A DNA stretch of 36,670 nt from an uncultured virus (IMG/VR IMGVR_UViG_3300011361_000001) (Duplodnaviria > Heunggongvirae > Uroviricota > Caudoviricetes): positions 186,001 to 222,670 of the IMG/VR virus record IMGVR_UViG_3300011361_000001; one strand, written 5' to 3'. Shown piece after piece: positions 16,682-33,204 of the stretch. A program made the translations under genes and the position numbers. Below the pieces are notes generated by a model that ran no database searches, was not told the DNA's origin, and was given only the letters and a program-made list of their open reading frames with translations. Numbering within the stretch: the first letter of the stretch is position 1; every line of letters begins with the position of its first letter.

Positions 16682-16756
16682 ATGGAAGTTGGAAAAGTAC
16701 GTCTTTACGGCTGCGGTGGAGATTTCAAATGTCCGAGTCCTTCACGACCTCGTTAA
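16682..16756 (+). pseudogene. Stranded original 5' end of phuZ (MEVGKVRLYGCGG, then 11 out-of-family codons and TAA)
   Basis: AGGTG RBS; the 13 codons at 16682-16720 match the PhuZ N-terminus VGTVRIFGCGG at 17475-17507. Confidence 0.85.
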
Positions 16757-17457
16757 AGACTGTTCTACCAAGCCAACCCGCTAGCATTTCTCGCAAAGAA
16801 CATTCCCATCCCGCAACATACGCGCTGCTACATCCCAGTAGCGACTCTGCTTATGTTGGCAGCACTTCGGATCTGTACAAAAGGCTTGCTCACCATAACA
16901 GTGACTTAAAGTGCGGCGTTCACAAGAACTCCAATCTTCAAAAGGCCTATGACCAGAATCCCTATTTTGATTTGGTCTTTGCTAAGGCCGAGTCTAAGGA
17001 AGAAGCGTTGTGTTTGGAACAGGAACTCCTCATTAATCACTTTGATAGTGGGAAGTTGTTTAACCTGGCCCGAGATGCAGTCAAAGCTGCGTTGGGATTG
17101 GTCTTTACTGATGAAGTGCGTGAGCGTTTGAGTCAAGCGGCTAAAGAACAGTTTGCAGATCCTGAGGCTCGTCTAGCCCAGAGTGTGCGAGGAAAAGCTT
17201 TATGGCAAGATCCTGAGTATCGTCAAAAACACGAAGGCGTGCCTAAAGCTGAACCTACCAAAAGAAAGATCAGAGACACCGTTAGAGAACTTTGGCAAGA
17301 TCCTGAGTATAGAGCCAGAGTAGCTGCATCAAGATCCGCCAACATCAAACCAGTCGTTATCGACGGGGTTACTTATCCAAACATTGGTGTTGCTTCAAGA
17401 GCAACAGGTATCCCCAGAGGTACATTACAATCTCGTAGAGCAAGGAATAAACTATGA
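16729..17457 (+). mobile_element. GIY-YIG homing endonuclease inserted in phuZ
   Basis: ATYALL...YVGST.DLYKRL.HH..DL..G.H.N..LQ; EQELL; LFN; two LWQDPEYR repeats; C-terminal VVIDGVTYPNIGVASRATGI; ATGA overlap with phuZ. Confidence 0.88.
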
Positions 17458-18431
17458 AAGAGCAAAATGCTTCTGTCGGCACTGTCAGAATTTTTGGCTG
17501 TGGTGGCCTCGGCGTCAATTTCGCAGCAAACTACATCAAGAGCCAAAGCGGTGATGGCTTTGCAGCAATCGATCCTGCGTTCATCGACACCAGCCGTTCC
17601 AACCTCGTTCCCGAGATTCCCGAGGAAAAGGTCTACATCCTCGAGAACACTGATGGCTCTGGTAAAGTGCGTCGTGAAAACCACGCCCAGATCTCCTCGA
17701 GCATCAAGCACATCCTGCAAGCCCAGCAGCCATCTGAATTCAACATCGTGGTCTTCTCGGCTTCCGGTGGTTCGGGTTCGGTTCTGGGTCCGCTGATTGT
17801 TTCGGAACTGCTGGCGCGTGGTCTGCCTGTGGTCGTCCTGACAGCCGGTTCTTCGGAATCGAACATCACGGCGAACAACACCGTCAACACCCTGAAGTCC
17901 TTGGCGGCGATCAGCAAGAAGGAAGCAGCTCCGGTTGTGACCTACTACCTGCACAACGGCGGCGACAACACCCGTTCGGCGGTAGACAAGAAGCTGGCTT
18001 TCGCAACGTCCTGCCTGTCGTACCTGGCTTCTCGCCAGAACGCAGAACTGGACACCAAAGACGTCAGTCACTGGCTGCGCTACAACCACTCGACCGAAGT
18101 GGCCCCTCAGCTCTCGCTGCTGGATATCTTCGTCGACCAGAAAACAGCCAAGAGCATCACCGATCCAATCTCGGTAGCCAGCCTCTACGCTGACCGTGAC
18201 CAACCGCACCTGACCGATCCAGTCCCGGATTACTCGTGCGCCGGTTACTTCCAGCACAAGGTCCAGGACATCGAAGAGATCCATTTCGTGATCTCAACCC
18301 AACACCTCGGTGCGACGTACGAGCGCCTCGAGGACACCCGTAACGATTACAACGCTCGTCGCGACAGCCGCGTCCAAGCCCGCAAGATTGTGGAACTGGA
18401 CGAAGCACAAGACGATGGTTTGGTTCTGTAA
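17454..18431 (+). CDS. phuZ: PhuZ phage tubulin/FtsZ-family spindle protein
   Basis: GCGGLG, FIDTS.SN, DGSGK.R, SASGGSGS signature, ELD..D T7 loop and C-terminal DDGLVL. Confidence 0.95.
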   Translation: MKEQNASVGTVRIFGCGGLGVNFAANYIKSQSGDGFAAIDPAFIDTSRSNLVPEIPEEKVYILENTDGSGKVRRENHAQISSSIKHILQAQQPSEFNIVVFSASGGSGSVLGPLIVSELLARGLPVVVLTAGSSESNITANNTVNTLKSLAAISKKEAAPVVTYYLHNGGDNTRSAVDKKLAFATSCLSYLASRQNAELDTKDVSHWLRYNHSTEVAPQLSLLDIFVDQKTAKSITDPISVASLYADRDQPHLTDPVPDYSCAGYFQHKVQDIEEIHFVISTQHLGATYERLEDTRNDYNARRDSRVQARKIVELDEAQDDGLVL

Positions 18432-19034: not shown

Positions 19035-19629
19035 GTTTTGGCGGGGTTGGAGCCTAGAGCGATACCTTTTCCTGGTCGCTCTACCAACCCGCCGTTTTAA
19101 TAAGGGGGCTTTGTATAAGAGTCTTAATCATCGGTGGTGCAATATCCTTAGCGATTGCCCAGTTACTTCACGACGGAGCCTTAGGGGTTGAAGTGGTGAC
19201 GGACAACGCTGGGTATGGTACTACCGCCGACAGCTGGTCGCAAAAGGTATACGCTCTGCGGTCATTCGAACACGAAGCTGCCACCCGAGAAGGCTTAGAC
19301 CTCATGCGGACACGGGCAGACTACGGATTCGGACTGACTGGGAGTTGGCCTAGGCGACAATACCTAGCGGGCGCGTCCCACCACATCCATAGGGCGGGTG
19401 TAAGGTGTGGACGCAACCCTTTCTCTCAACCGCTCATGTGAGACCCTAGGAAAATATTTTTCTTTGTGCTTCTCTACATGCTGGCCCTTTGCTATGAATG
19501 GCAATTGTGGCTGGCGCTGGCGGTCTTAGGCGCGTCTATTCTTTTTCTTGAATCTGAGGTGAGTCCGCGACCTTTCAACGCGCGGCATAAAACCCCCTCC
19601 AGGTTCACAGGGTTCAGGGCCCTGGTTTA

Positions 19630-19914
19630 AGAATTAGTGCGCCTGAGATGCGCTATATAATGAACCGATTAAGTTCGGCATAAAGGGTTTACCAACCCAG
19701 CAGTTGCTAATAGTAACACACCCAGGACGAACGGCTTCTATCAGCTGTCCACCCCCCCTAGGGTTTACTTGAGAGCTTCAAAAGCAATAAAGAACACCCC
19801 CCTCGGCCGCAGCCCAGGCAATGTACGAAGGTCACTTCCCTTGGCGGGAGTTGGTGACGCTTAGTCATTTAGACCTGACTCGAGCCGAGACGGGGGCGTT
19901 TCCTATTTATGCCG
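19630..19914 (+). ncRNA. Candidate structured non-coding RNA (small hairpins plus a ~108-nt rod)
   Basis: No credible ORF; nested helices at 19793-19900; ends in TTTATGCCG; strand inferred. Confidence 0.4.
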
Positions 19915-20579: not shown

Positions 20580-20957
20580 ATGAAAACTTACAAGGTTCTA
20601 GTACCTTTTGTGATCTACCTCATCATAGCAGTAGGGATGCTGGGGATATATAAGTGGGCAGATGAGGCTTTGTCTTATCGGACTGCTTTAGCATGGGCTT
20701 TCTATGCGGGCTTTAGAGCGTTGTATCTATCGGTGTTGGGGGAGAAAGCCGTCAGGCAATTGAGACACGCAGCAGTGGATCAACCTAGCCTGATGTTAAT
20801 GACCATTGTGGTCGGAATTATCCCTTTCATTTTCCTAGGGTGGTTGGGGTGTTTAGCGGCAGGCTGTGTAAGCTTTGCCTTTGAGTACCATTCCTATCGA
20901 CTCGTTCGGAAATATACGTGGAGTATAAACTATGGTAGACATCACGATCAACGCTGA
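20580..20957 (+). CDS. Multi-pass membrane protein
   Basis: Three to four hydrophobic segments. Confidence 0.65.
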   Translation: MKTYKVLVPFVIYLIIAVGMLGIYKWADEALSYRTALAWAFYAGFRALYLSVLGEKAVRQLRHAAVDQPSLMLMTIVVGIIPFIFLGWLGCLAAGCVSFAFEYHSYRLVRKYTWSINYGRHHDQR

Positions 20958-21354
20958 CCGATCCTTCGTCCGTTTGAATAACGGCAACACCATCGAGCAC
21001 GATGAAGAAGGAACCGTGTTCATCCGCAACATCGTCCCACAACAAGACGACCCAACGCGCACCCACACCCATTACACCAGTATCCACAGCTTGGCCAATG
21101 ACGGTCAAAAGATGATCGAGTTGATCAAGCAAGGTATTGAAACCGGTAATTGGGAAGGTCGCTCTCGTCACGCTCTGGTCCGTTCAGGGCAACCCGGTTG
21201 CTACCGATACTTCCCAGTCCCGCTCCTGTTTGAAGATGACGACAAGATCCGTCACTCCAGTCAAGAAGCCGGCCTACACACCCACCCAGATGGTTGGTAC
21301 AAGTATCGCCGCAACTTGGTATCACAACTCGTTGGCCTGCCTCAGATTCCTTGA
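20932..21354 (+). CDS. Hypothetical protein
   Basis: GGAG RBS; biased codons. Confidence 0.75.
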   Translation: MVDITINADRSFVRLNNGNTIEHDEEGTVFIRNIVPQQDDPTRTHTHYTSIHSLANDGQKMIELIKQGIETGNWEGRSRHALVRSGQPGCYRYFPVPLLFEDDDKIRHSSQEAGLHTHPDGWYKYRRNLVSQLVGLPQIP

Positions 21355-21370
21355 GGTAGGTTTTTGCTCC

Positions 21371-21396
21371 AGGAGGCTTCGGCCTCCTTTTTTTTT
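21371..21396 (+). terminator. Intrinsic terminator
   Basis: AGGAGGC-TTCG-GCCTCCT plus T-tract. Confidence 0.85.
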
Positions 21397-21419
21397 CTGC
21401 TGCCAATAACCTATAGTAT

Positions 21420-21860
21420 GCGATTTACACATGCGTTTAAAAAATCCGTTGGTTTCACGGTCGATGGATTAACACCGATGTTGTTCTGTTGAGCAGTGTC
21501 TATGGCATTGCACCGGTTGTCCGGATAACCGAGTTATGGGTCTTGGTGAAAGAGTAGTCAGAAACGTACTGAGGTGACCCGGATTCTGCCACCGTTGTTT
21601 TGTTTGTTTGCGCACGGTGGAGCGAGCAGAATTATTACATTCCGTAGGTCGGGGTAGCGGTTTAACAGGTGGACAGGTGCGATCGGATGTACTCTGGCGT
21701 GGCAACGACTCGGGAACGGCACTGCGCCGTACAGAGAGTGCCGCTGGTGGGCATCGGCGTTGCTTAAGGGGAAACATCGGTGCGTCACCAGGCCGGTTGT
21801 CCTGTCCCTTTTCCATCCTTGGGGTGGGGTGTAGAAGGAGGACTTCGGTCCTCCTTTTAT
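21420..21860 (+). ncRNA. Candidate ~440-nt multi-domain structured RNA
   Basis: Lies between two terminators; TATG at 21417-21420; 10-bp long-range helix 21473-82/21773-82 enclosing at least six hairpins; no credible ORF. Confidence 0.6.
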
Positions 21861-21864
21861 GCCG
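21835..21864 (+). terminator. Intrinsic terminator followed by TTATGCCG
   Basis: AAGGAGGAC-TTCG-GTCCTCCTT-TTATGCCG. Confidence 0.85.
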
Positions 21865-21978
21865 TCTGTTCTTTAAATAGTCCTATAACGTCCTAGGAAG
21901 TCCGTGGCAAGGTTTTCGTCTGTTAAACAATACCGTGTGGCTTATTTTATAGAGAACCCTTGTGGCGCATCCTAAGAT

Positions 21979-22006
21979 GTTTCAGACATATATCATCTAA
22001 GTGAAT
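21979..22006 (+). promoter_or_regulatory. phiKZ-type early promoter
   Basis: GTTTCAGACA-TATATCAT-CTAAGT-GAAT. Confidence 0.65.
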
Positions 22007-22038
22007 TGGCCGACCCCCTTTAAAGAAAGGACTAACCT

Positions 22039-22557
22039 GTGAAATACGTCATACCCACCCGTGACTGGGTTGAGTTCCTAAAAGCGCGACTGGCCGACAT
22101 TATTGAAGAAGGCCTGATCCCGAAAGAAGAACTGCGCTTTAGCAATTCTGTTTGTACTCACGTGGTGCGTAACCTGTTGATCATGCGTCTGCGCGATCTG
22201 ATGCTGTGGTTCGACGACGAGCTTGAACTTAAACTGGTCGGTAGCCCAGACCTGATGATCTCCTTTAACCTCGAACCGTTGGAAGGCTTGATCGCTCGGG
22301 TCTATCCAAACTTCGCCAGTGTGATCGGTGACCACCAGGTCCACCCACAGATGGAGAAGTGGGGCGAGATCATCGAGCTTGAAGTGATCGAACCGCTGGA
22401 CAGTTACTTGCAAGATCACCTGGCAACCACATTCTCCCTCGAGCCGAGTTGGCAACACGCTACACTCAAGCAAATGGGCAACAGCTACATCTTAACTCGC
22501 GGGGAAGACTACCGTGCATTATTCTGGGACAAATACCGACCAACCATCAAGCCATAG
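22039..22557 (+). CDS. Hypothetical protein (phiKZ-like cluster upstream of DNA polymerase)
   Basis: AAGGA RBS; GTG start. Confidence 0.8.
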   Translation: MKYVIPTRDWVEFLKARLADIIEEGLIPKEELRFSNSVCTHVVRNLLIMRLRDLMLWFDDELELKLVGSPDLMISFNLEPLEGLIARVYPNFASVIGDHQVHPQMEKWGEIIELEVIEPLDSYLQDHLATTFSLEPSWQHATLKQMGNSYILTRGEDYRALFWDKYRPTIKP

Positions 22558-25768: not shown

Positions 25769-27940
25769 GTGAACAATTCTTTTCTGAAGCCCGCCAGTCA
25801 CTACAGCCGTGACCTGGATGTATTGGGTAATTACCGTAGCGACATGGCTCTGTATCTGTCTAAGCGCACTGGCAAGCCTCTGGCTGACTGTCAGGCGTGG
25901 GTCAATCAAGTCACCGCAGCCGGTGGTCGCTTGGAGATCAAAGACCCAGAAGTGTTACACTTGGCCCGTGGTAAGAACGGGGACCGTGAACAAAAGGTCT
26001 TGACCTACACCGAGTACCTGAACAACATCAAAGACCGTAAGCTGCTGTTCTCCCCAGCGATGACGGTATACGAGAACCCCAACCGCCGAGAGTCCCTACT
26101 CTCGATCTACGTTACCGGTAACATTGAGGGCCGAGCCAAGGTTAAAGCCGAAGCTTTCGATGCCCAGATGGCGGGTAACCACGTTGTGGCGGACATTAAG
26201 GAGAACGAGCAGTCCACGTACAAGATTGCCAACAACTCGATCTCAGGCGGTCAAGCCTCAGCCTCAACGATCTTCTACAACAAGTCAGCTCACTCAAGCC
26301 TGACGTCCACCTGCCGGGTTGCGACCAGCTACGGTAACTCGAACAACGAGAAGTTCTTGGCTGGTAACCGTCACTACTGGGCACCTGATGTAGTTTTGGC
26401 AAACATCACCTCGATTATCGGTCACGTGAACTACGACCTGATTGGTAAGGCGGTCTCCACCTACAACCTGCACATCCCAACCGTGGATGAGGTGATGGAA
26501 GTCATCCTGTACAGTACGGTGCACTACTGGCGTAACCGTAAGCAGGAAACCGAGATCCGTAAACTGGTGGAAGGTCTCGAGCCGTTAGAGCGCGCAGCCT
26601 TTGTGTATGTCGGGGATATGTGGCACTTGGGTAAATACAACAAGGAGTTCGTTCACACCTTCTTGCAGGTGATGTCGAGTAAGACCTCAGGTCAGACCTT
26701 GCCGTATGACGATGCTAAAGTCTGGGTTAAGGGGATGGACAACGACCTTAAGGCCTACGTCAGCTTGATCTGTGCCAAAGAACTCGACGGACGTACCCTG
26801 AAGAAACTTCAAGGGATGGCTGAAGAAGGGGTCGAGGAAGCGGTTCACGGTATCCGGGTGATGGGTGAGTTTGCCAAGAAGACGGTTGAGACGCTTGAGC
26901 AGTTTGCCTTGCTGATCGAAGCCTTCTGGGTGACAGACAACGTACCGGCCTCGGTTGCCCGTATCCGTAATTCGGTGCGACACGTCGCGATCACCTCAGA
27001 CACAGACTCCACGATCTTTGCGGTGGAGAACTGGGTTGAGTGGTACATGGGTCACGTGGACTTCAGCGATGAAGCCTTCTCCATCAACTACACGATGGTG
27101 TACCTGGCTTCGCAGTCGATCATTCACGTTCTGGCTAAGCTCTCCACGATCTTGGGGGTTATCCCTGAGAAGCTTAACGTGTTGGCGATGAAGAACGAGT
27201 TTGCGTTCTCAGTCTTTGGTCTGACCTCGATGGCTAAGCACTACTTTGCCTACAAGGCCGCCCGTGAAGGGAACGTCTTCAAACACTTGGAGGAAGAGAT
27301 CAAAGGGGTGTACCTGAAAGACTCGAACTGCCCGCCTGAGATTATGGCGGTAGTGACCGAGACGATTAAGGAGGTCATGGACACGGTGATTGCGGACAAG
27401 CAGATCTCGATGATCGACCTGTACCGTAAGATCGCAGCCATTGAGATGGACATTATTGAATCGGTGATCAAAGGCAAGTCGCGTTACTTGGCCCGGTCTT
27501 CGGTGAAATCAGCCAACTCCTACACCAACCCCCAACAGTCCCCGTACCAGCACTACGTGTATTGGCAAGACATCTTTGCCCCCAACTACGGCGACGCCCC
27601 TGAAGCACCGTACCCGGCCATCAAGGTATCCTTGGACCTGCCGAACAAGACGGCCATTCAAGAGTGGATAGCCAGCATTGAGGACAAGGACATTGCAGCT
27701 AAGGTTGCTAAGTACTTTGCCAACAAACCTGGGATGACGACCCTGCTACTGCCTAAGGATAACGTGGAACGTCACGGACTGCCTAAGGAAGTGGTTCAGG
27801 CGATGAACATCCGCAAGCTCGTGTACTCAACTGTTCGGCCGTTCTATCTCATCCTTGAAGCGCTGGGCATTTTCTTGGTGAATGGCAACAACACCAAACT
27901 CGTCAGCGATTTCGTTCAAGAGTGGGAACCTGCGGCATAA
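25769..27940 (+). CDS. phiKZ-type split family-B DNA polymerase, polymerase-domain subunit
   Basis: YKIANNS (motif B), TSDTDS (motif C), MKNEF, AKHYFA and EIKGV; position near chmA. Confidence 0.85.
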   Translation: MNNSFLKPASHYSRDLDVLGNYRSDMALYLSKRTGKPLADCQAWVNQVTAAGGRLEIKDPEVLHLARGKNGDREQKVLTYTEYLNNIKDRKLLFSPAMTVYENPNRRESLLSIYVTGNIEGRAKVKAEAFDAQMAGNHVVADIKENEQSTYKIANNSISGGQASASTIFYNKSAHSSLTSTCRVATSYGNSNNEKFLAGNRHYWAPDVVLANITSIIGHVNYDLIGKAVSTYNLHIPTVDEVMEVILYSTVHYWRNRKQETEIRKLVEGLEPLERAAFVYVGDMWHLGKYNKEFVHTFLQVMSSKTSGQTLPYDDAKVWVKGMDNDLKAYVSLICAKELDGRTLKKLQGMAEEGVEEAVHGIRVMGEFAKKTVETLEQFALLIEAFWVTDNVPASVARIRNSVRHVAITSDTDSTIFAVENWVEWYMGHVDFSDEAFSINYTMVYLASQSIIHVLAKLSTILGVIPEKLNVLAMKNEFAFSVFGLTSMAKHYFAYKAAREGNVFKHLEEEIKGVYLKDSNCPPEIMAVVTETIKEVMDTVIADKQISMIDLYRKIAAIEMDIIESVIKGKSRYLARSSVKSANSYTNPQQSPYQHYVYWQDIFAPNYGDAPEAPYPAIKVSLDLPNKTAIQEWIASIEDKDIAAKVAKYFANKPGMTTLLLPKDNVERHGLPKEVVQAMNIRKLVYSTVRPFYLILEALGIFLVNGNNTKLVSDFVQEWEPAA

Positions 27941-29626: not shown

Positions 29627-29681
29627 ACTCACCTTGTGTGGGTTGTTTGCGCAAACAAACGATAACGAAGGAAATAAACTC

Positions 29682-31694
29682 ATGAGCGTTAATAAAGACA
29701 GCGGTAAGTCGAACGGTTCCTTGGCTGATGCAATGCGCCAAGCCGGTCTGGCCAATGAGCAACAGCAGGCTGCCCCTGCTCTGCAACCTCAAGTACAAAC
29801 TCAACAAGCTCCCGACATGTCGGGTGGGAACCCAAGCATGAACACCAGCAATAACTCCGGCGCTCGTGTTGGCCAGCCGGGCCGTTCGATCATGAACGTC
29901 AACAGCCAGCACCGTGGCCTGGTGTCGCGCAACATGTCTGGCGAAACTGTCCAGAAGATCCACGACGGCCTGCTCGAGCGTGCCAAGCGTGTGATGGACC
30001 CCAAGACCCTGGACGCCTTCCGCTTCCTGGTACTGGATTCCAACCAGCTGCAAGTGAACTACTCCAGCATTCTCGTGTGCATGAAGGAAGTTCATGGCAA
30101 CCAGACTCACATCGGCGTCTACGACCTGCTGATCGAAGGTTCGGGCCGTCCGCTGCAGCCGAACATCGCCACCATCGATGGCCACACCATCGAGACGATC
30201 TTCGCACCGTCGGACATCTACAACCATGCTTCCCACTGGAACACCGTGAAGAAGTTCGTGGTCGACACCTTCGGCGTCAATGCTCAGGTTCATGATGCAG
30301 GTTGCACCGTGATCCCGACCGAGCTGGACAAAGAAATCCCGGTTGAGCGTTTCCAAGATTGGCTGCACAACTCCGTGCAAGCAGTCTGGGCAGTTCTCGA
30401 CACCAAGCTGGGCGCTGAAGCTCCTGCGTTCACCCTGGCCGAGTTCGGCGAGAAGGACATCCTGACCGCTCGTTCCGAGTACGGTTCGGTCCATGACACC
30501 AACATCGTTGGCCTGCCAGTTCGTGGCGACATCGAGCTGACCGTATCGGCGACCAACAACGCCGAGACTCAGGGTCTGGACATGCGTCCTCCGCGTGAAC
30601 TGACTCGCGTTACCGGTTACATCGATCTGATGTACAACCCGCAGCAACAGCAAGTGCAGCAGCAGTTCGGGATGTTCCCGATGCAGCAGCAGCCAATGAT
30701 GCAGGGTATCATGTACCAACCGCGTCTGGTACTGACCAACGTCGAGTCGCTGACTGACGTCGTCTCCATGGAGCTTCAGCTCCTGGCTCTGTCGACTGCC
30801 GTACAGCTCGGCCGCAATGGCGCTTGGTGGAATGCGTTCCGTCGTCCGCTGAAGACCTACAGCGAAGGTACCAATGCTCGTAAGGGCTTGAACCTGCGTG
30901 ACGTGGGTGCGATTGGTTACGAGATCAAGGACCCGGCTAACCCCGGCCAGCCTGGCAACAAGATCGACACCAGCGCTACCAACTTCGGCGACCAGCAGTT
31001 CGCCCAGATGATGAGCATGTTCTTCAACCAGCAGCTGCTGTACACGCTGGACATCGAAGAAGCAGGCGAACTCTCCTGGCTGCAGCAGGCTTTCATCGCT
31101 GCTGCGAACAAGAACGAAGACGCGCGTAAGAGCATCCTGCTGGCGGCTAACCGCCTGACGCTGGGTCGCTTCGAGAAGCACTTCCCGTTCGATGCGCCGG
31201 TCTGCTTCGACGACGCTGACCGTATCCACCTCGGGTACTACACCAACAGCGAAGGCCACCTGCGTGACCTGCGTGAGTTGGACTACCTCGCCATCCTGAA
31301 CCTGGCTGGCAAGGACGACCCGACTCTCGTAGAGAAGTGGGAGCGTACTCACCTGGATCGTTCGATCCCTCTGGCTGTGCGTCTGCATGAGCGTAAGACC
31401 ATCATCGACCGCCTGCTGTCGGGCTCCGTTGTGGTCAAGGGCTTCGCACGTCGCGTAACCTTCTCCGAGCAGTTCATCAAGGCTCTGAGCGATTCGATCG
31501 AAGAAGCCGGTCTGTCCGTACGTCCGGGCAACATGGTTGACACGTTCAATCAGGGTGCCACTCGTGGCGGTTACAACTTCCAGGGTCAGCTGGTTAACCC
31601 CGGCCTCGGCAACTGGATGTCCAGCGGCGCGATCCAGCCGAACTACGGTACCCGCTTCGGGAACCAGCAGTTCAACGGTGTGTGGGGTCGCTAA
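29682..31694 (+). CDS. chmA: Chimallin, the phage nuclear shell protein
   Basis: ~670 aa with very strong highly-expressed codon bias; GLPVRGD, GYIDL, IHLGYY, RDLRELDYLA and GFARRVTF motifs; directly upstream of nvRNAP beta-prime; start ATG 29682 after GAAGGA. Confidence 0.88.
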   Translation: MSVNKDSGKSNGSLADAMRQAGLANEQQQAAPALQPQVQTQQAPDMSGGNPSMNTSNNSGARVGQPGRSIMNVNSQHRGLVSRNMSGETVQKIHDGLLERAKRVMDPKTLDAFRFLVLDSNQLQVNYSSILVCMKEVHGNQTHIGVYDLLIEGSGRPLQPNIATIDGHTIETIFAPSDIYNHASHWNTVKKFVVDTFGVNAQVHDAGCTVIPTELDKEIPVERFQDWLHNSVQAVWAVLDTKLGAEAPAFTLAEFGEKDILTARSEYGSVHDTNIVGLPVRGDIELTVSATNNAETQGLDMRPPRELTRVTGYIDLMYNPQQQQVQQQFGMFPMQQQPMMQGIMYQPRLVLTNVESLTDVVSMELQLLALSTAVQLGRNGAWWNAFRRPLKTYSEGTNARKGLNLRDVGAIGYEIKDPANPGQPGNKIDTSATNFGDQQFAQMMSMFFNQQLLYTLDIEEAGELSWLQQAFIAAANKNEDARKSILLAANRLTLGRFEKHFPFDAPVCFDDADRIHLGYYTNSEGHLRDLRELDYLAILNLAGKDDPTLVEKWERTHLDRSIPLAVRLHERKTIIDRLLSGSVVVKGFARRVTFSEQFIKALSDSIEEAGLSVRPGNMVDTFNQGATRGGYNFQGQLVNPGLGNWMSSGAIQPNYGTRFGNQQFNGVWGR

Positions 31695-31711
31695 TCTAGC
31701 GGCCTAAGTGA

Positions 31712-31750
31712 AAGGGGGAGGCATTGCCTCCCCTTTTTATTTTTTATGTC
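31712..31750 (+). terminator. Intrinsic terminator of chmA
   Basis: AAAGGGGGAGGC-ATT-GCCTCCCCTTT plus a T-tract ending in TTATGTC. Confidence 0.85.
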
Positions 31751-31773
31751 AGCCACAATGGGAGTCTCGACAG

Positions 31774-33204
31774 ATGGGTGTCTGTGCAGAGATCGTTAAC
31801 CACGATCAGCTATTTGATTCACTGACCAGCGTACCGCTCATCATTAACGATTATCAAATCGACAGTAAAGAGGATCGAGACGCGCTGCACAACCTGGCTA
31901 TTACGAAGTACACCGGTGAATCGTTGGATATCGTACCTTCGTGCGATTGCGGTCACCTTAAGTACCAGTATAACGTCGGCGTGCGGTGTCCCCTCTGCAA
32001 CCACTTCTGCCTGCCTTCAACGGAACGTCCGTTGGATGCGCTGTTGTGGATTGCTGCCCCTCAGGGTGTGGATCGTTTGATCAACCCTTGGGTGTACGTG
32101 ATTCTTAAGTCAGAGATGACCGTTAAGAGCGTAAGTCTACTGGATTGGCTTATCAATCCTGGATATCGTCCCCCGAACAAAAAGATGGAGTTCTTTACCC
32201 AAGCCCTGATCACTCAAGGGTACAAGCGGGGATTGAATTCGTACTACCGTAACTTCGACAGCATCATGCAACTGATGTGCTCGGAGGAAGGGCCGTTGTA
32301 TGACAATAAGAAGAAGCGTAAGGTTGAGTACCTGCGTACCTTCATTGCCATCTACCGCGACCTGATCTTCAGCCACAAAGTACCGATCCCGTCGAAAGCT
32401 GCCTTCATCATCGAGAAAGCAGCCACTGGGTTGTATGGTGACCTCACCATGCGGCCAGCCATTGATGCGATCTACACCATCAGTGGTATCGTGCACAGCC
32501 AGACGAAGCTGAGCCAAGAGGAAATCGAGAAGCGTACCGTCACTGCGGTCATTATGCTGTCTGAGTACTACGCCCCGTTCATCGGTGCGCAGCTTGGCAG
32601 TAAGACCGGTTGGTGGCGTAAGCATGTGTTTGGATCACGTGACCACTTCAGCTTCCGAGCGGTGATTACTTCACGGTCCGAGCAACACCATCACGAAGAA
32701 CTCGAGCTGCCTTGGTCGTTGTCGATCATGGTGTTTAAAACCCACCTGACCGCTAAACTGTTGCACCGAGGGATGTCGCCCAAGCAGATCAACAAGCTGC
32801 TGTTCGAGCATACCCTGCGCTACCATCCTTTGATCGATGAGATCTTCAAGGAAATGATTGCTGAATCCCCTCGTAAGGGTATCCCAGTGATCTTCCAGCG
32901 TAACCCTACGCTGACCCGACTGTCGGCCCAACGCCTGTATGTCACCCGTATCAAGAGTGAAGACACACGCATCAACACCGTGAGTCTCTCGGTACTGGTA
33001 CTGCCCGGCATGAACGCAGACTACGACGGTGACGCCTTGAACGGTATCATCATTCTGGATCACCAGATGTTGGAGGCTCTGGATGAGTTGGCCCCGCGTA
33101 ACGGCGTCTACGACACCCGTAAACCCCGAAGCATTTCCAGCCACATTGCAATCCCTGCACCCGTGGTAACCACGATCTCAAACTACATACATCGAGGTCG
33201 GTAA
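31774..33204 (+). CDS. Non-virion RNA polymerase beta-prime N-terminal subunit (phiKZ gp55-like)
   Basis: C.CG...CP.C zinc ribbon; K.GWWRKHVFGSR..FS.RAVI; RNPTL; catalytic NADYDGD; start ATG 31774 after GGGAG. Confidence 0.92.
   Translation: MGVCAEIVNHDQLFDSLTSVPLIINDYQIDSKEDRDALHNLAITKYTGESLDIVPSCDCGHLKYQYNVGVRCPLCNHFCLPSTERPLDALLWIAAPQGVDRLINPWVYVILKSEMTVKSVSLLDWLINPGYRPPNKKMEFFTQALITQGYKRGLNSYYRNFDSIMQLMCSEEGPLYDNKKKRKVEYLRTFIAIYRDLIFSHKVPIPSKAAFIIEKAATGLYGDLTMRPAIDAIYTISGIVHSQTKLSQEEIEKRTVTAVIMLSEYYAPFIGAQLGSKTGWWRKHVFGSRDHFSFRAVITSRSEQHHHEELELPWSLSIMVFKTHLTAKLLHRGMSPKQINKLLFEHTLRYHPLIDEIFKEMIAESPRKGIPVIFQRNPTLTRLSAQRLYVTRIKSEDTRINTVSLSVLVLPGMNADYDGDALNGIIILDHQMLEALDELAPRNGVYDTRKPRSISSHIAIPAPVVTTISNYIHRGR

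What the first reader, a model, noticed from the sequence alone, without database searches (positions are those of the whole stretch)
21410..21864. Stand-alone ~440-nt highly structured non-coding RNA candidate
Seen: the region lies between an upstream terminator and its own strong terminator, starts at a TATG motif and has no credible ORF. Helices: 21443-52/21461-70; a perfect closing helix CACCGATGTT (21473-82) / AACATCGGTG (21773-82); and, inside it, 21493-511, 21514-31, GGGTC/GACCC, TTCTGC/GCAGAA with CCACCGT/ACGGTGG, TACAT-TCCG/CGGATGTA, GGCAACG/CGTTGCT and CGGCACT/AGTGCCG. Crossing pairings GGACAGG (21671) / CCTGTCC (21801) and CTGGTG (21744) / CACCAG (21786) suggest pseudoknots. CATCGGCGTT (21752) offers an alternative partner for the 5' strand. 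I see no tmRNA, RNase P or group I/II hallmarks. Inference: a novel late phage ncRNA acting as a scaffold, ribozyme, switch or anti-defence decoy.
Basis: partly seen in the sequence, partly recalled or inferred. Interest (0 to 1): 0.78.

Follow-up and report, generated by a model that had tools for sequence, protein, structure and literature searches.

The report
New folded RNA in nucleus-forming phages
The gap holds a real, conserved, folded non-coding RNA gene of a giant "nucleus-forming" phage, from a family found in no catalogue, whose job is still unknown.

Summary
Window 21410-21864 is a real RNA gene, not chance. The + strand folds better than all 100 shuffles (z -3.26; - strand z -1.57). 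No reading frame is conserved. Rfam gives nothing.

It lies in a 222,670-bp chimallivirus (chimallin, PhuZ, nvRNAP).

It is not one closed 440-nt fold but two domains. The 5' core, about 21435-21666, ends in an invariant 20-mer, UCCGUAGGNCGGGGUAGCGG. This core recurs in 26 of 30 collected sequences (16 distinct) from three clades of uncultured chimalliviruses with chimallin 42-49% identical. Its helices covary across clades: 17 of 22 pairs change on both sides. The 3' domain (21667-21827) plus terminator is specific to this clade, and 19 of 74 pairs covary.

His "pseudoknots" are the nested helices of the 3' domain.

In clade C the RNA heads a tRNA operon, yet this phage has no tRNA at all.

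Best reading: a stable trans-acting structural RNA. The mechanism is inferred. The main rival is a cis-acting operon leader.

The parts
21371..21397 (+). Intrinsic terminator of the upstream 140-aa gene (20932-21354). It separates that gene from the RNA gene.
   Evidence: stem 21371-21388 followed by a T run. Invariant in the 5 clade A sequences. An equivalent terminator precedes the RNA in clade C.
21411..21420 (+). Promoter-like CTATAGTATG. The transcription start is probably just downstream (inferred).
   Evidence: Conserved in 5 of 5 clade A sequences, with one G-to-A change in L002. TATAG[AT] is enriched in non-coding DNA of the genome: 20 of 69 occurrences lie in the 7.7% that is non-coding, binomial p 1.4e-7. 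The 10-mer itself is not repeated beyond chance.
21435..21441 (+). Tentative P1 5' strand, pairing with 21661-21666 to close the 5' core.
   Evidence: 6 pairs, 2 with changes on both sides, 89.7% of cells paired. A duplex-energy control did not separate cognate from non-cognate partners.
21443..21470 (+). Its loop UUUCACGGU resembles the CUUCACGGC loop of clade C.
   Evidence: 10 pairs, 96% of cells paired, nearly invariant.
21473..21576 (+). 5' sub-domain closed by P-alpha (21473-76 with 21573-76). It holds an inner helix (21479-89 with 21557-69) and three hairpins (21493-511, 21512-25, 21528-47).
   Evidence: the inner helix has 5 of 11 pairs compensatory, and the hairpins have 1 of 7, 2 of 5 and 0 of 6. 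The equivalent P-alpha in clade C is columns 21-25 with 146-150.
21577..21582 (+). Junction element ACCCGG. ACCCG is invariant in all 16 sequences, and the sixth base is G in 13 and A in 3.
   Evidence: invariant columns A13 C14 C15 C16 G17.
21583..21632 (+). Px helix (21583-88 with 21627-32). It encloses hairpin 21589-95/21614-20, whose loop is U-rich (GUUUUGUUUGUUUG) and ends in UUGCGCA.
   Evidence: Cross-clade model alignment: Px has 10 pairs, 7 with changes on both sides, 91.4% of cells paired. One search gives 2 of 5 compensatory within clade A. The inner hairpin pairs are invariant in clade A.
21633..21660 (+). Linker UAUUACAU followed by the invariant 20-mer UCCGUAGGNCGGGGUAGCGG (21641-21660), the signature of the family.
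   Evidence: The N position takes all four bases.
21661..21666 (+). Tentative P1 3' strand (UUUAAC). Most relatives have a UUUCA-like tract here.
   Evidence: weak support.
21667..21827 (+). Clade-specific 3' domain. A long closing helix (21667-86 with 21793-810) encloses a branched interior (21689-21741 and 21744-21791). A small hairpin follows at 21813-27.
   Evidence: 74 pairs including the terminator, 98.1% of cells paired, 19 pairs with changes on both sides against 2-4 when the partner is slid. Model R3 finds it only in this genome (E 7e-37) and in 0 of 5 records of the other clades and the Xoo-sp14-like group.
21828..21863 (+). Intrinsic terminator of the RNA gene.
   Evidence: 16-pair stem. 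3 of 16 pairs are compensatory in clade A.

Best explanation
Window ~21418-21866 (+) is an independently transcribed gene for a stable, structured non-coding RNA of about 450 nt, in an uncultured nucleus-forming jumbo phage (chimallivirus). It belongs to an uncatalogued RNA family.

The conserved unit is the 5' core of about 230-250 nt. It is a multi-helix junction: a tentative P1, then P-alpha closing a variable three-hairpin sub-domain, then Px closing a variable sub-domain with a U/C-rich loop. The joining strands of this junction are the invariant ACCCG(G/A) and UCCGUAGGNCGGGGUAGCGG. This phage's clade has added a lineage-specific 3' domain of about 165 nt before the terminator.

Inferred mechanism: the RNA acts in trans as a stable structural RNA. 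The invariant junction would be the site that binds a conserved partner, which could be a phage or host protein, an RNA, or copies of itself. The covarying arms would serve only as scaffold. This is the same kind of thing as the orphan stable RNAs of phage tRNA operons and the GOLLD and ROOL RNAs.

Shown: the gene-like boundaries, strand, conservation, covariation and domain structure. Inferred: transcription, stability, action in trans and the partner.
For: Structure and strand: z -3.26 on + against -1.57 on -.

Gene-like boundaries: terminators on both sides and a conserved promoter-like box.

Not coding.

Family: 26 of 30 collected sequences, 16 of them distinct, fall in clades A, B and C. 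All records checked that carry the gene are chimalliviruses, with chimallin at 92%, 49%, 49%, 49%, 48% and 42% identity. DNA polymerase is only 56-57% identical between clades A and B.

A model built from clade C alone finds clades A and B end to end (E 3e-10 to 1e-7).

Covariation across clades: 92.4% of cells pair against 66.9% in shuffles (0 of 500 reach it). 17 of 22 pairs change on both sides. Slid controls pair in 30-47% of cells. Within clades.

One copy per genome.

A terminator follows the core directly in clade B, and follows the 3' domain in clade A. That fits a discrete RNA product.

The downstream genes differ in every clade, so the RNA is not tied to one regulated gene.

This phage has 0 tRNA genes but keeps the RNA.
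Against: - No transcript evidence: no RNA run was listed.
- In clade C no terminator follows the core. A ribosome-binding site plus a 50-aa ORF, or a tRNA-shaped gene, starts 10-20 nt after the motif. There the RNA is at least physically a leader.
- In clade B the next ORF starts about 40 nt after the terminator, with no obvious promoter between them. That also looks like a leader with an attenuator.
- The closing helix P1 is weak, AU-rich, and not better than non-cognate or shuffled partners.
- The family was collected through the invariant motif, so its invariance is partly circular, and the model alignment leans towards the modelled structure.
- Within clade A nearly all compensatory changes split the sequences into just two lineages.
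- No partner is known. The upstream 140-aa gene is linked in clades A and C only, and its predicted fold was unusable (pLDDT 48.6).
Confidence: 0.55

Rival explanations
1. A cis-acting operon leader. The 5' core would be a long structured 5' leader: a riboswitch-like sensor, an attenuator, a processive-antitermination element or an RNA-stabilising element. It would control or protect whatever lies downstream, namely tRNAs, a small membrane ORF or P-loop genes. In this clade the regulated cargo would have been replaced by the 3' domain.
For: The RNA is always co-oriented with the downstream genes and follows an upstream terminator. In clade C an AAGGAG site and ATG, or a tRNA-shaped gene, follow within 10-20 nt. 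In clade B the order is core, terminator, then the ORF about 40 nt later, as in a transcription-attenuating riboswitch. A junction with invariant joining strands and variable arms is how aptamers look (general knowledge).
Against: The downstream genes are unrelated between clades, unlike metabolite riboswitches. No conserved anti-terminator alternative was seen by eye for clade B or the Xoo-sp14-like sequences. In clade A the RNA ends at a strong terminator, and the next operon has its own conserved promoter-like box 90 nt before its start. The phage with no tRNAs keeps the RNA.
Confidence: 0.22
2. A large ribozyme. The invariant junction would be a catalytic core, for instance self-cleavage that frees the downstream tRNA or RNA, or another RNA-processing activity useful inside the phage nucleus.
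For: About 26 invariant bases lie in joining strands of a multi-helix junction. In clade C2 a tRNA-shaped gene starts about 15-20 nt after the motif.
Against: No match to any Rfam ribozyme, RNase P or intron model, even at E<=10. The other tRNAs of the same arrays have no such element. Clades A and B have no tRNA next to the RNA.
Confidence: 0.06
3. One reading: one 440-nt fold closed by CACCGATGTT/AACATCGGTG, with internal pseudoknots, acting as a late anti-defence decoy, scaffold, ribozyme or switch.
For: The closing helix is perfect in the window and in L002. Several of his internal helices are real.
Against: The closing helix is disrupted in 3 of 5 relatives, with only 72% of cells paired. 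Its 3' strand instead pairs inside the 3' domain with compensatory changes. The 3' half is absent from clades B and C. No evidence on timing or defence.
Confidence: 0.04
4. Not an RNA gene: a small protein gene, or a DNA-level element such as an origin, a protein-binding site or a homing target, whose conservation mimics an RNA.
For: The window has a 115-aa antisense ORF and a 90-aa sense ORF. The 20-mer is invariant also as DNA.
Against: The ORFs are broken in relatives and there is no codon-position bias. Fold stability is strand-specific. Compensatory changes, including G-U pairs, only make sense in RNA of the + strand.
Confidence: 0.03

Closest known systems
GOLLD and ROOL RNAs (Rfam families). 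Large ornate RNAs of phages and prophages, function unknown, that form RNA-only nanocages (bioRxiv 10.1101/2024.12.08.627333; passages read).
   Same: Phage-encoded, large, with many conserved helices and no known function. They are 'often near tRNA islands', as this RNA is in 8 of 9 distinct clade C loci. GOLLD has one universally conserved region and one less conserved region. Here the 5' core is conserved and the 3' domain is clade-specific.
   Different: No sequence or structure match to their Rfam models. This RNA is smaller, with a core of about 240 nt against about 580 and over 800 nt. Here the conserved part is at the 5' end. It occurs in chimalliviruses, and this phage has no tRNAs. 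Oligomerisation is untested.
Stable RNAs inside phage tRNA operons: T4 species 1 and 2 RNAs (recalled, not checked here) and T5 RNA1/RNA2, 'tRNA-like stable RNA with unknown functions' (as quoted in earlier notes e1-5984120 and e1-5651788; record not read by me).
   Same: In clade C the RNA is the first gene of a tRNA operon that also holds tRNA-shaped RNAs with large insertions. Function unknown.
   Different: It is not tRNA-like: no tRNA model hit and no ARAGORN call, even with introns allowed. It is about twice as long. In clades A and B it stands alone, without tRNAs.
Riboswitch aptamers and other cis-regulatory leaders
   Same: A multi-helix junction with invariant joining strands and covarying arms. 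It sits at the 5' end of a transcription unit, and a terminator follows directly in clade B.
   Different: No conserved class of downstream gene, no identifiable expression platform, and a separate 3' domain plus terminator in this clade. No Rfam riboswitch match.
phiKZ small ncRNA candidates (mBio 2021, PMC8545117; passages read)
   Same: Non-coding RNAs of a nucleus-forming phage, found in intergenic gaps.
   Different: The candidate described in the passages read is about 100 nt (between PHIKZ298 and PHIKZ297); two candidates are reported. Neither of my models finds anything in phiKZ.

Membership tests
Any Rfam 15 family (RNase P, tmRNA, 6S, SRP, group I/II introns, GOLLD, ROOL, riboswitches, ribozymes) | Covariance-model score at or above the family's gathering score | tested here: not met
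   0 matches on the whole window. At E<=10 on 21300-22060 there are 8 matches, all far below gathering and mostly on the terminator. In 5 loci of clades B and C only the neighbouring tRNAs reach gathering score.
tRNA / tmRNA / tRNA-like RNA | Cloverleaf recognised by ARAGORN or by the Rfam tRNA model | tested here: not met
   ARAGORN finds 0 genes in the window and 0 in the whole genome. With introns allowed, calls fall only downstream of the RNA in clade C.
GOLLD/ROOL-type ornate phage RNA | Phage-encoded and next to tRNA islands | tested here: inconclusive
   Phage-encoded: yes. tRNAs lie downstream in 8 of 9 distinct clade C loci; the ninth locus is only 1337 nt. There are none in clade A (window) or clade B (L014).
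GOLLD/ROOL-type ornate phage RNA | Self-assembly into a homo-oligomeric RNA cage | not testable with these tools
   Needs SEC-MALS or cryo-EM of an in-vitro transcript.
Riboswitch / cis-regulatory leader | The same class of regulated gene lies downstream across the family | tested here: not met
   Downstream lies a 3' RNA domain (clade A), P-loop ORFs (clade B), or a 50-aa membrane ORF or tRNAs (clade C).
Riboswitch / cis-regulatory leader | An expression platform (terminator or RBS) that competes with the aptamer | tested here: inconclusive
   A terminator follows directly in clade B and an RBS follows directly in clade C1. I saw no conserved alternative pairing by eye; this was not computed systematically.
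Stand-alone bacterial/phage sRNA gene | Own promoter and own intrinsic terminator, no conserved ORF | tested here: met
   Terminators. Conserved promoter-like box: (a promoter is inferred only). No conserved ORF.
Structured RNA (general) | Compensatory base changes beyond controls | tested here: met
   (17 of 22 pairs, 0 of 500 shuffles reach the score, slid controls far lower). (19 of 74). (10 of 80). (19 of 57).

The most novel reading that the evidence does not exclude
The 5' core is an old, chimallivirus-specific functional RNA whose activity does not depend on tRNAs. It heads the tRNA operon in one clade. It survives as a lone gene in a phage with no tRNA at all, and there it has acquired a new 165-nt domain. 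Its roughly 26 invariant junction bases would then form a true active site: a sensor for a small molecule or signal during infection, a catalytic centre, or the contact that builds an RNA-only assembly. That would be a new class of functional RNA tied to the phage-nucleus way of life.
Probability: 0.15. Interest if true: 0.9.

Novelty: new variant of a known kind. Interest (0 to 1): 0.66.

Why it matters
Nucleus-forming jumbo phages separate transcription from translation and resist DNA-targeting defences, and their RNA biology is almost unexplored. In the passages I read, only short candidates are described for phiKZ.

This is a large RNA with about 26 invariant bases held in a covarying scaffold. 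It is kept across phages whose shell protein has diverged to 42-49% identity, and it is retained in a phage that carries no tRNAs. All this argues for a selected, sequence-specific function.

As a sequence family it is new: it matches no Rfam family, and four full-text searches found nothing. As a kind it joins the orphan structured RNAs of phages (GOLLD, ROOL, and the T4/T5 stable RNAs), whose function is a long-standing open question. It is small enough for probing and cryo-EM.

If it turns out to be only a leader or stabiliser of an operon, the interest is modest.

Tried and rejected
- Rfam at gathering and E-value thresholds: nothing.
- blastn of the region and of the motif against 50,697 phage records: no relative.
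- RNase P, tmRNA, tRNA-like and intron readings were considered. They were dropped for lack of any model hit, and because the whole genome has no tRNA.
- Sequencing runs: no RNA holder listed. All 16 listed runs hold under 0.1 of the words, so I did not lay reads.
- Cultured chimalliviruses: models R1 and R2 found nothing significant in 5 of 5 (LucasX, Xoo-sp14, Goslar, RAY, phiKZ).
- The best hit is Xoo-sp14 42033-42108 (E 0.07), in an unannotated 340-nt gap. It has a diverged motif and a terminator. An IMG/VR relative shows one compensatory change. But the site is not syntenic, since the DNA polymerase lies at 192 kb, and no other cultured phage has it. It is a lead only.
- Motif-only matches are treated as chance or unrelated. 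They have no Px helix, and their number is of the order I estimated for chance: L022, L023/25/38 and L058 (an alphaproteobacterial MAG, just after a stop codon). L056, found on an IMG/VR fragment with a looser pattern, also has no Px helix and is left unresolved.
- P1 duplex-energy test: cognate pairs are no better than cross-clade or shuffled pairs, so P1 stays tentative.
- The 10-mer CTATARTATG is not a repeated promoter.
- Upstream 140-aa protein as partner: no Pfam or PHROG family, no cultured homologue, not found in the clade B fragment or the Xoo-like genome, and an unusable AlphaFold model with pLDDT 48.6. I did not search its fold.
- A sequence-only MAFFT alignment of all clades misplaces Px, so I used model-based alignment instead.
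- The clade A RNAalifold pairing of CUGCCACCGUU with the motif has no variation, and the cross-clade Px contradicts it.

Full report
CONTEXT. The window is bases 186001-222670 of a 222,670-bp virus record with direct terminal repeats. It encodes a chimallin-type nuclear shell protein (29634-31694), PhuZ tubulin (17454-18431), a non-virion RNA polymerase beta subunit (31708-33204) and a DNA polymerase (25769-27940). So this is a nucleus-forming jumbo phage. Its chimallin is below 30% identical to that of every cultured phage in the listed rows (133 records matched, all under 60%; best 29.2%, LucasX).

OBSERVATION.
- The stretch 21410-21864 lies between two terminator-like hairpins, 21371-21388 plus a T run and 21828-21863.
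- The + strand folds to -175.7 kcal/mol against -155.6 +/- 6.2 for 100 shuffles (z -3.26, none as good). The - strand gives z -1.57.
- The window has a 115-aa antisense ORF and a 90-aa sense ORF. In four relatives every frame carries 1-10 stops. The 86 substitutions against L004 inside the antisense ORF fall 25/29/32 over the codon positions. It is not coding.
- Rfam 15 gives no match at gathering score in the whole window. At E<=10 there are 8 sub-threshold matches, the best being HOTAIR_3 at 25.9 bits against a cut-off of 80, lying on the terminator and spacer.
- ARAGORN finds no tRNA or tmRNA.

RELATIVES.
- Loci fetched through the DNA polymerase carry the whole region at 90% identity (L002) and 76-77% (L003-L005). 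In two distant relatives (polymerase 56-57% identical) only a 28-nt core is shared.
- That core contains the 20-mer UCCGUAGGNCGGGGUAGCGG (window 21641-21660). Scanning for it gave 11 loci in IMG/VR, 18 in metagenomes and 1 in 185,579 species genomes.
- Of 30 sequences clustered (the window plus 29 loci), 26 form three groups: clade A with 7, clade B with 5 and clade C with 14. Of these, 16 are distinct below 97% identity. The other 4 (L022, L023/25/38) share the motif only.
- The records checked are chimalliviruses, with chimallin 92% (A), 42% (B) and 48-49% (C) identical to the window's. Two short fragments had no chimallin on them.
- There is one copy per genome.

ARCHITECTURE. The RNA has two domains.

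(1) A 5' core shared by all clades.
- After a tentative closing helix P1, helix P-alpha (window 21473-76 with 21573-76) closes a variable sub-domain of three hairpins.
- Then comes the junction element ACCCGG (21577-82). ACCCG is invariant, and the sixth base is A in 3 of the 16 sequences.
- Then helix Px (21583-88 with 21627-32) closes a second variable sub-domain. This always contains a U- or U/C-rich loop and a UUGCRYAC-like loop.
- Then come an 8-nt linker and the invariant 20-mer.
- A covariance model built from clade C alone (R1) finds clade A at E 3e-10 to 1e-8 and clade B at 3e-8 to 1e-7, end to end.
- On the 16-sequence model alignment, 92.4% of 276 cells pair, against 66.9% in shuffles (0 of 500 reach it). 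17 of 22 pairs change on both sides. With the 3' partner slid by 1-3 columns only 30-47% of cells pair. Px alone has 7 of 10 pairs with double changes: AUUCUGC, ACUUUGC, CAACAGUGUG, CUCUCUG and CUUUUAA all sit at the same place.
- Caveats. The set was collected through the motif, and the alignment is fitted to the model.
- Within clade C RNAalifold gives 57 pairs, 19 of them compensatory. Within clade A the 5' domain gives 10 of 80.
- P1 is weak. In clade A it has 2 of 6 pairs compensatory. In clade C2 I saw a 9-10-bp match by eye (output). But cognate duplex energies are no better than cross-clade or shuffled ones.
- How the invariant strands pair cannot be decided, because nothing varies. 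The candidates are CCCG with CGGG, or a local UCCG/CGGG hairpin with loop UAGGN.

(2) A 3' domain (21667-21827) plus terminator.
- It has 74 pairs, 98.1% of cells paired, and 19 pairs with double changes, against 2-4 in slid controls.
- Model R3 finds it in the window's own genome (E 7e-37). It finds it in 0 of 5 records of clades B and C and the Xoo-sp14-like group. So it is an addition of clade A.
- Three of its segments support two mutually exclusive pairings, both with compensation. I leave this open.

- His closing helix 21473-82/21773-82 pairs in only 72% of cells, and four of its pairs are unpaired in 3 of 5 sequences.
- GGCAACG/CGTTGCT pairs in 65.7% of cells.
- TACAT-TCCG/CGGATGTA shows no compensation.
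- His Px, GGACAGG/CCTGTCC, CTGGTG/CACCAG and CGGCACT/AGTGCCG helices are supported.
- Because the closing helix falls, the last pairings are not pseudoknots. They are the nested helices of the 3' domain.

SURROUNDINGS.
- Upstream, in clades A and C, lies the same 140-aa gene (41% identical), followed by a terminator. It has no family, no cultured homologue, and was not found in the clade B fragment or the Xoo-like genome.
- Downstream everything differs:
  - Clade A has the 3' domain and terminator, then a conserved promoter-like box (TATTTTATAGAG) 90 nt before the next ORF.
  - Clade B has a terminator right after the core, and a P-loop ORF about 40 nt later.
  - Clade C1 has AAGGAG, ATG and a 50-aa hydrophobic ORF, then tRNAs.
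  - Clade C2 has tRNA-shaped genes with 43-85-nt insertions, starting 15-20 nt after the motif, then ordinary tRNAs.
- tRNAs follow on the same strand in 8 of 9 distinct clade C loci; the ninth locus is only 1337 nt.
- The window's whole genome has no tRNA.
- TATAG[AT], present at 21412, is enriched in non-coding DNA of this genome (20 of 69 occurrences in 7.7% of the bases, p 1.4e-7). That is consistent with a promoter core. The timing of expression is unknown.

WHAT IT IS AND HOW IT MAY WORK.
- Shown: a conserved, strand-specific, non-coding, covarying RNA structure with gene-like boundaries.
- Inferred: it accumulates as a stable RNA and acts in trans through its invariant junction, with the arms serving as scaffold.
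- I prefer this reading for four reasons. Terminators follow the RNA in clades A and B. The cargo downstream is unrelated between clades. A tRNA-less phage keeps it. Its clade could add a whole new domain without disturbing the core.
- The main rival is a cis-acting leader. Clades B and C have the layout of one, and I give it about 0.2.

COMPARISON WITH WHAT IS KNOWN.
- GOLLD and ROOL are phage or prophage RNAs 'often near tRNA islands', of unknown function, that form RNA cages. GOLLD has one universally conserved region and one less conserved region (10.1101/2024.12.08.627333, passages). The parallel is in kind only, since their Rfam models do not match.
- T4 and T5 stable RNAs in tRNA operons are a second parallel. 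T4 is recalled from memory. T5 is as quoted in the earlier notes.
- Earlier notes of this scan describe, in a genome that shares words with my clade C sequences, a tRNA operon that starts with 'a new 220-base folded RNA' and with tRNA mimics (e1-5984120, e1-5984094, e1-5651788). That is probably the clade C member of this family. I confirmed the insertion-bearing tRNA shapes, but not their RNA's identity with mine.
- phiKZ has only two small ncRNA candidates in the passages I read (PMC8545117; PMC8244752).
- Four full-text searches listed no paper on a large structured RNA of chimalliviruses. Supplements were not examined.

CULTURED PHAGES.
- R1 and R2 find nothing significant in LucasX, Xoo-sp14, Goslar, RAY or phiKZ.
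- The best hit (E 0.07) is an unannotated 340-nt gap of Xoo-sp14 (MT939492.1 41836-42175). It has UCCGCUAGGUUGGGGUGGCGG followed by a terminator, fold z -2.05, and one compensatory change in an IMG/VR relative.
- It is not syntenic, so it remains a lead.

VERDICT. This is a real, uncatalogued, two-domain structured RNA gene. His global fold is wrong. His functional guesses are untested. The function remains inferred.

Noticed in passing
window 16729-17457 (+): An HNH homing-endonuclease-like ORF (phrog_314, E 1e-14) whose end overlaps the start of the PhuZ tubulin gene (17454-18431).
   Followed up: no
L027 2033-2161 and 2176-2336 (+); L017 1360-1486 (-): Directly after the RNA in clade C2 lie tRNA-shaped genes with 43-85-nt insertions at the anticodon loop (ARAGORN with introns; Rfam tRNA E 1.7e-4). 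They show no similarity to the RNA itself. Earlier notes e1-5651788 and e1-5984120 describe the same kind of gene.
   Followed up: partly
window 29513 (G000 215513); also G000 22258(-), 39846(-), 86252(-), 181318(-), 139962(+): A repeated promoter-like box, TCACCT, 5-6 bases, then TATAGA. One copy lies 120 nt before the chimallin gene.
   Followed up: no
window 21865-22038: The spacer after the RNA's terminator is itself conserved in clade A (TTAAACAATACC ... TATTTTATAGAGAAC). It probably holds the promoter of the 22039 operon.
   Followed up: partly
window 19442-19914; G000 16826-17295, 48684-49142, 72421-73231, 79556-80024: Further long gaps without ORFs, by my crude ORF calling. The one inside the window has no Rfam match. 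They could hold more RNAs.
   Followed up: no
Xoo-sp14 MT939492.1 41836-42175 (L055 2337-2676): An unannotated 340-nt gap with a diverged copy of the motif, an ACCCUG element after a long helix, and a terminator. Model E is 0.07 genome-wide. It is not syntenic with the family.
   Followed up: partly
L056 1030-2760: An IMG/VR fragment (74.8 kb, no chimallin on it) with CAUUCCGUAGGUUGGGGUAGCGG inside a stretch with few ORFs. It has no Px-like helix.
   Followed up: partly
window about 21689-21707, 21717-21728 and 21735-21743: Three segments of the 3' domain support two mutually exclusive pairings, each with compensatory changes. These may be alternative conformers, or an artefact of having only two lineages.
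   Followed up: partly
L011 1326-1478 (-): A 50-aa hydrophobic ORF with a strong AAGGAG site begins 10 nt after the RNA's motif in clade C1. It is also present in L013.
   Followed up: no
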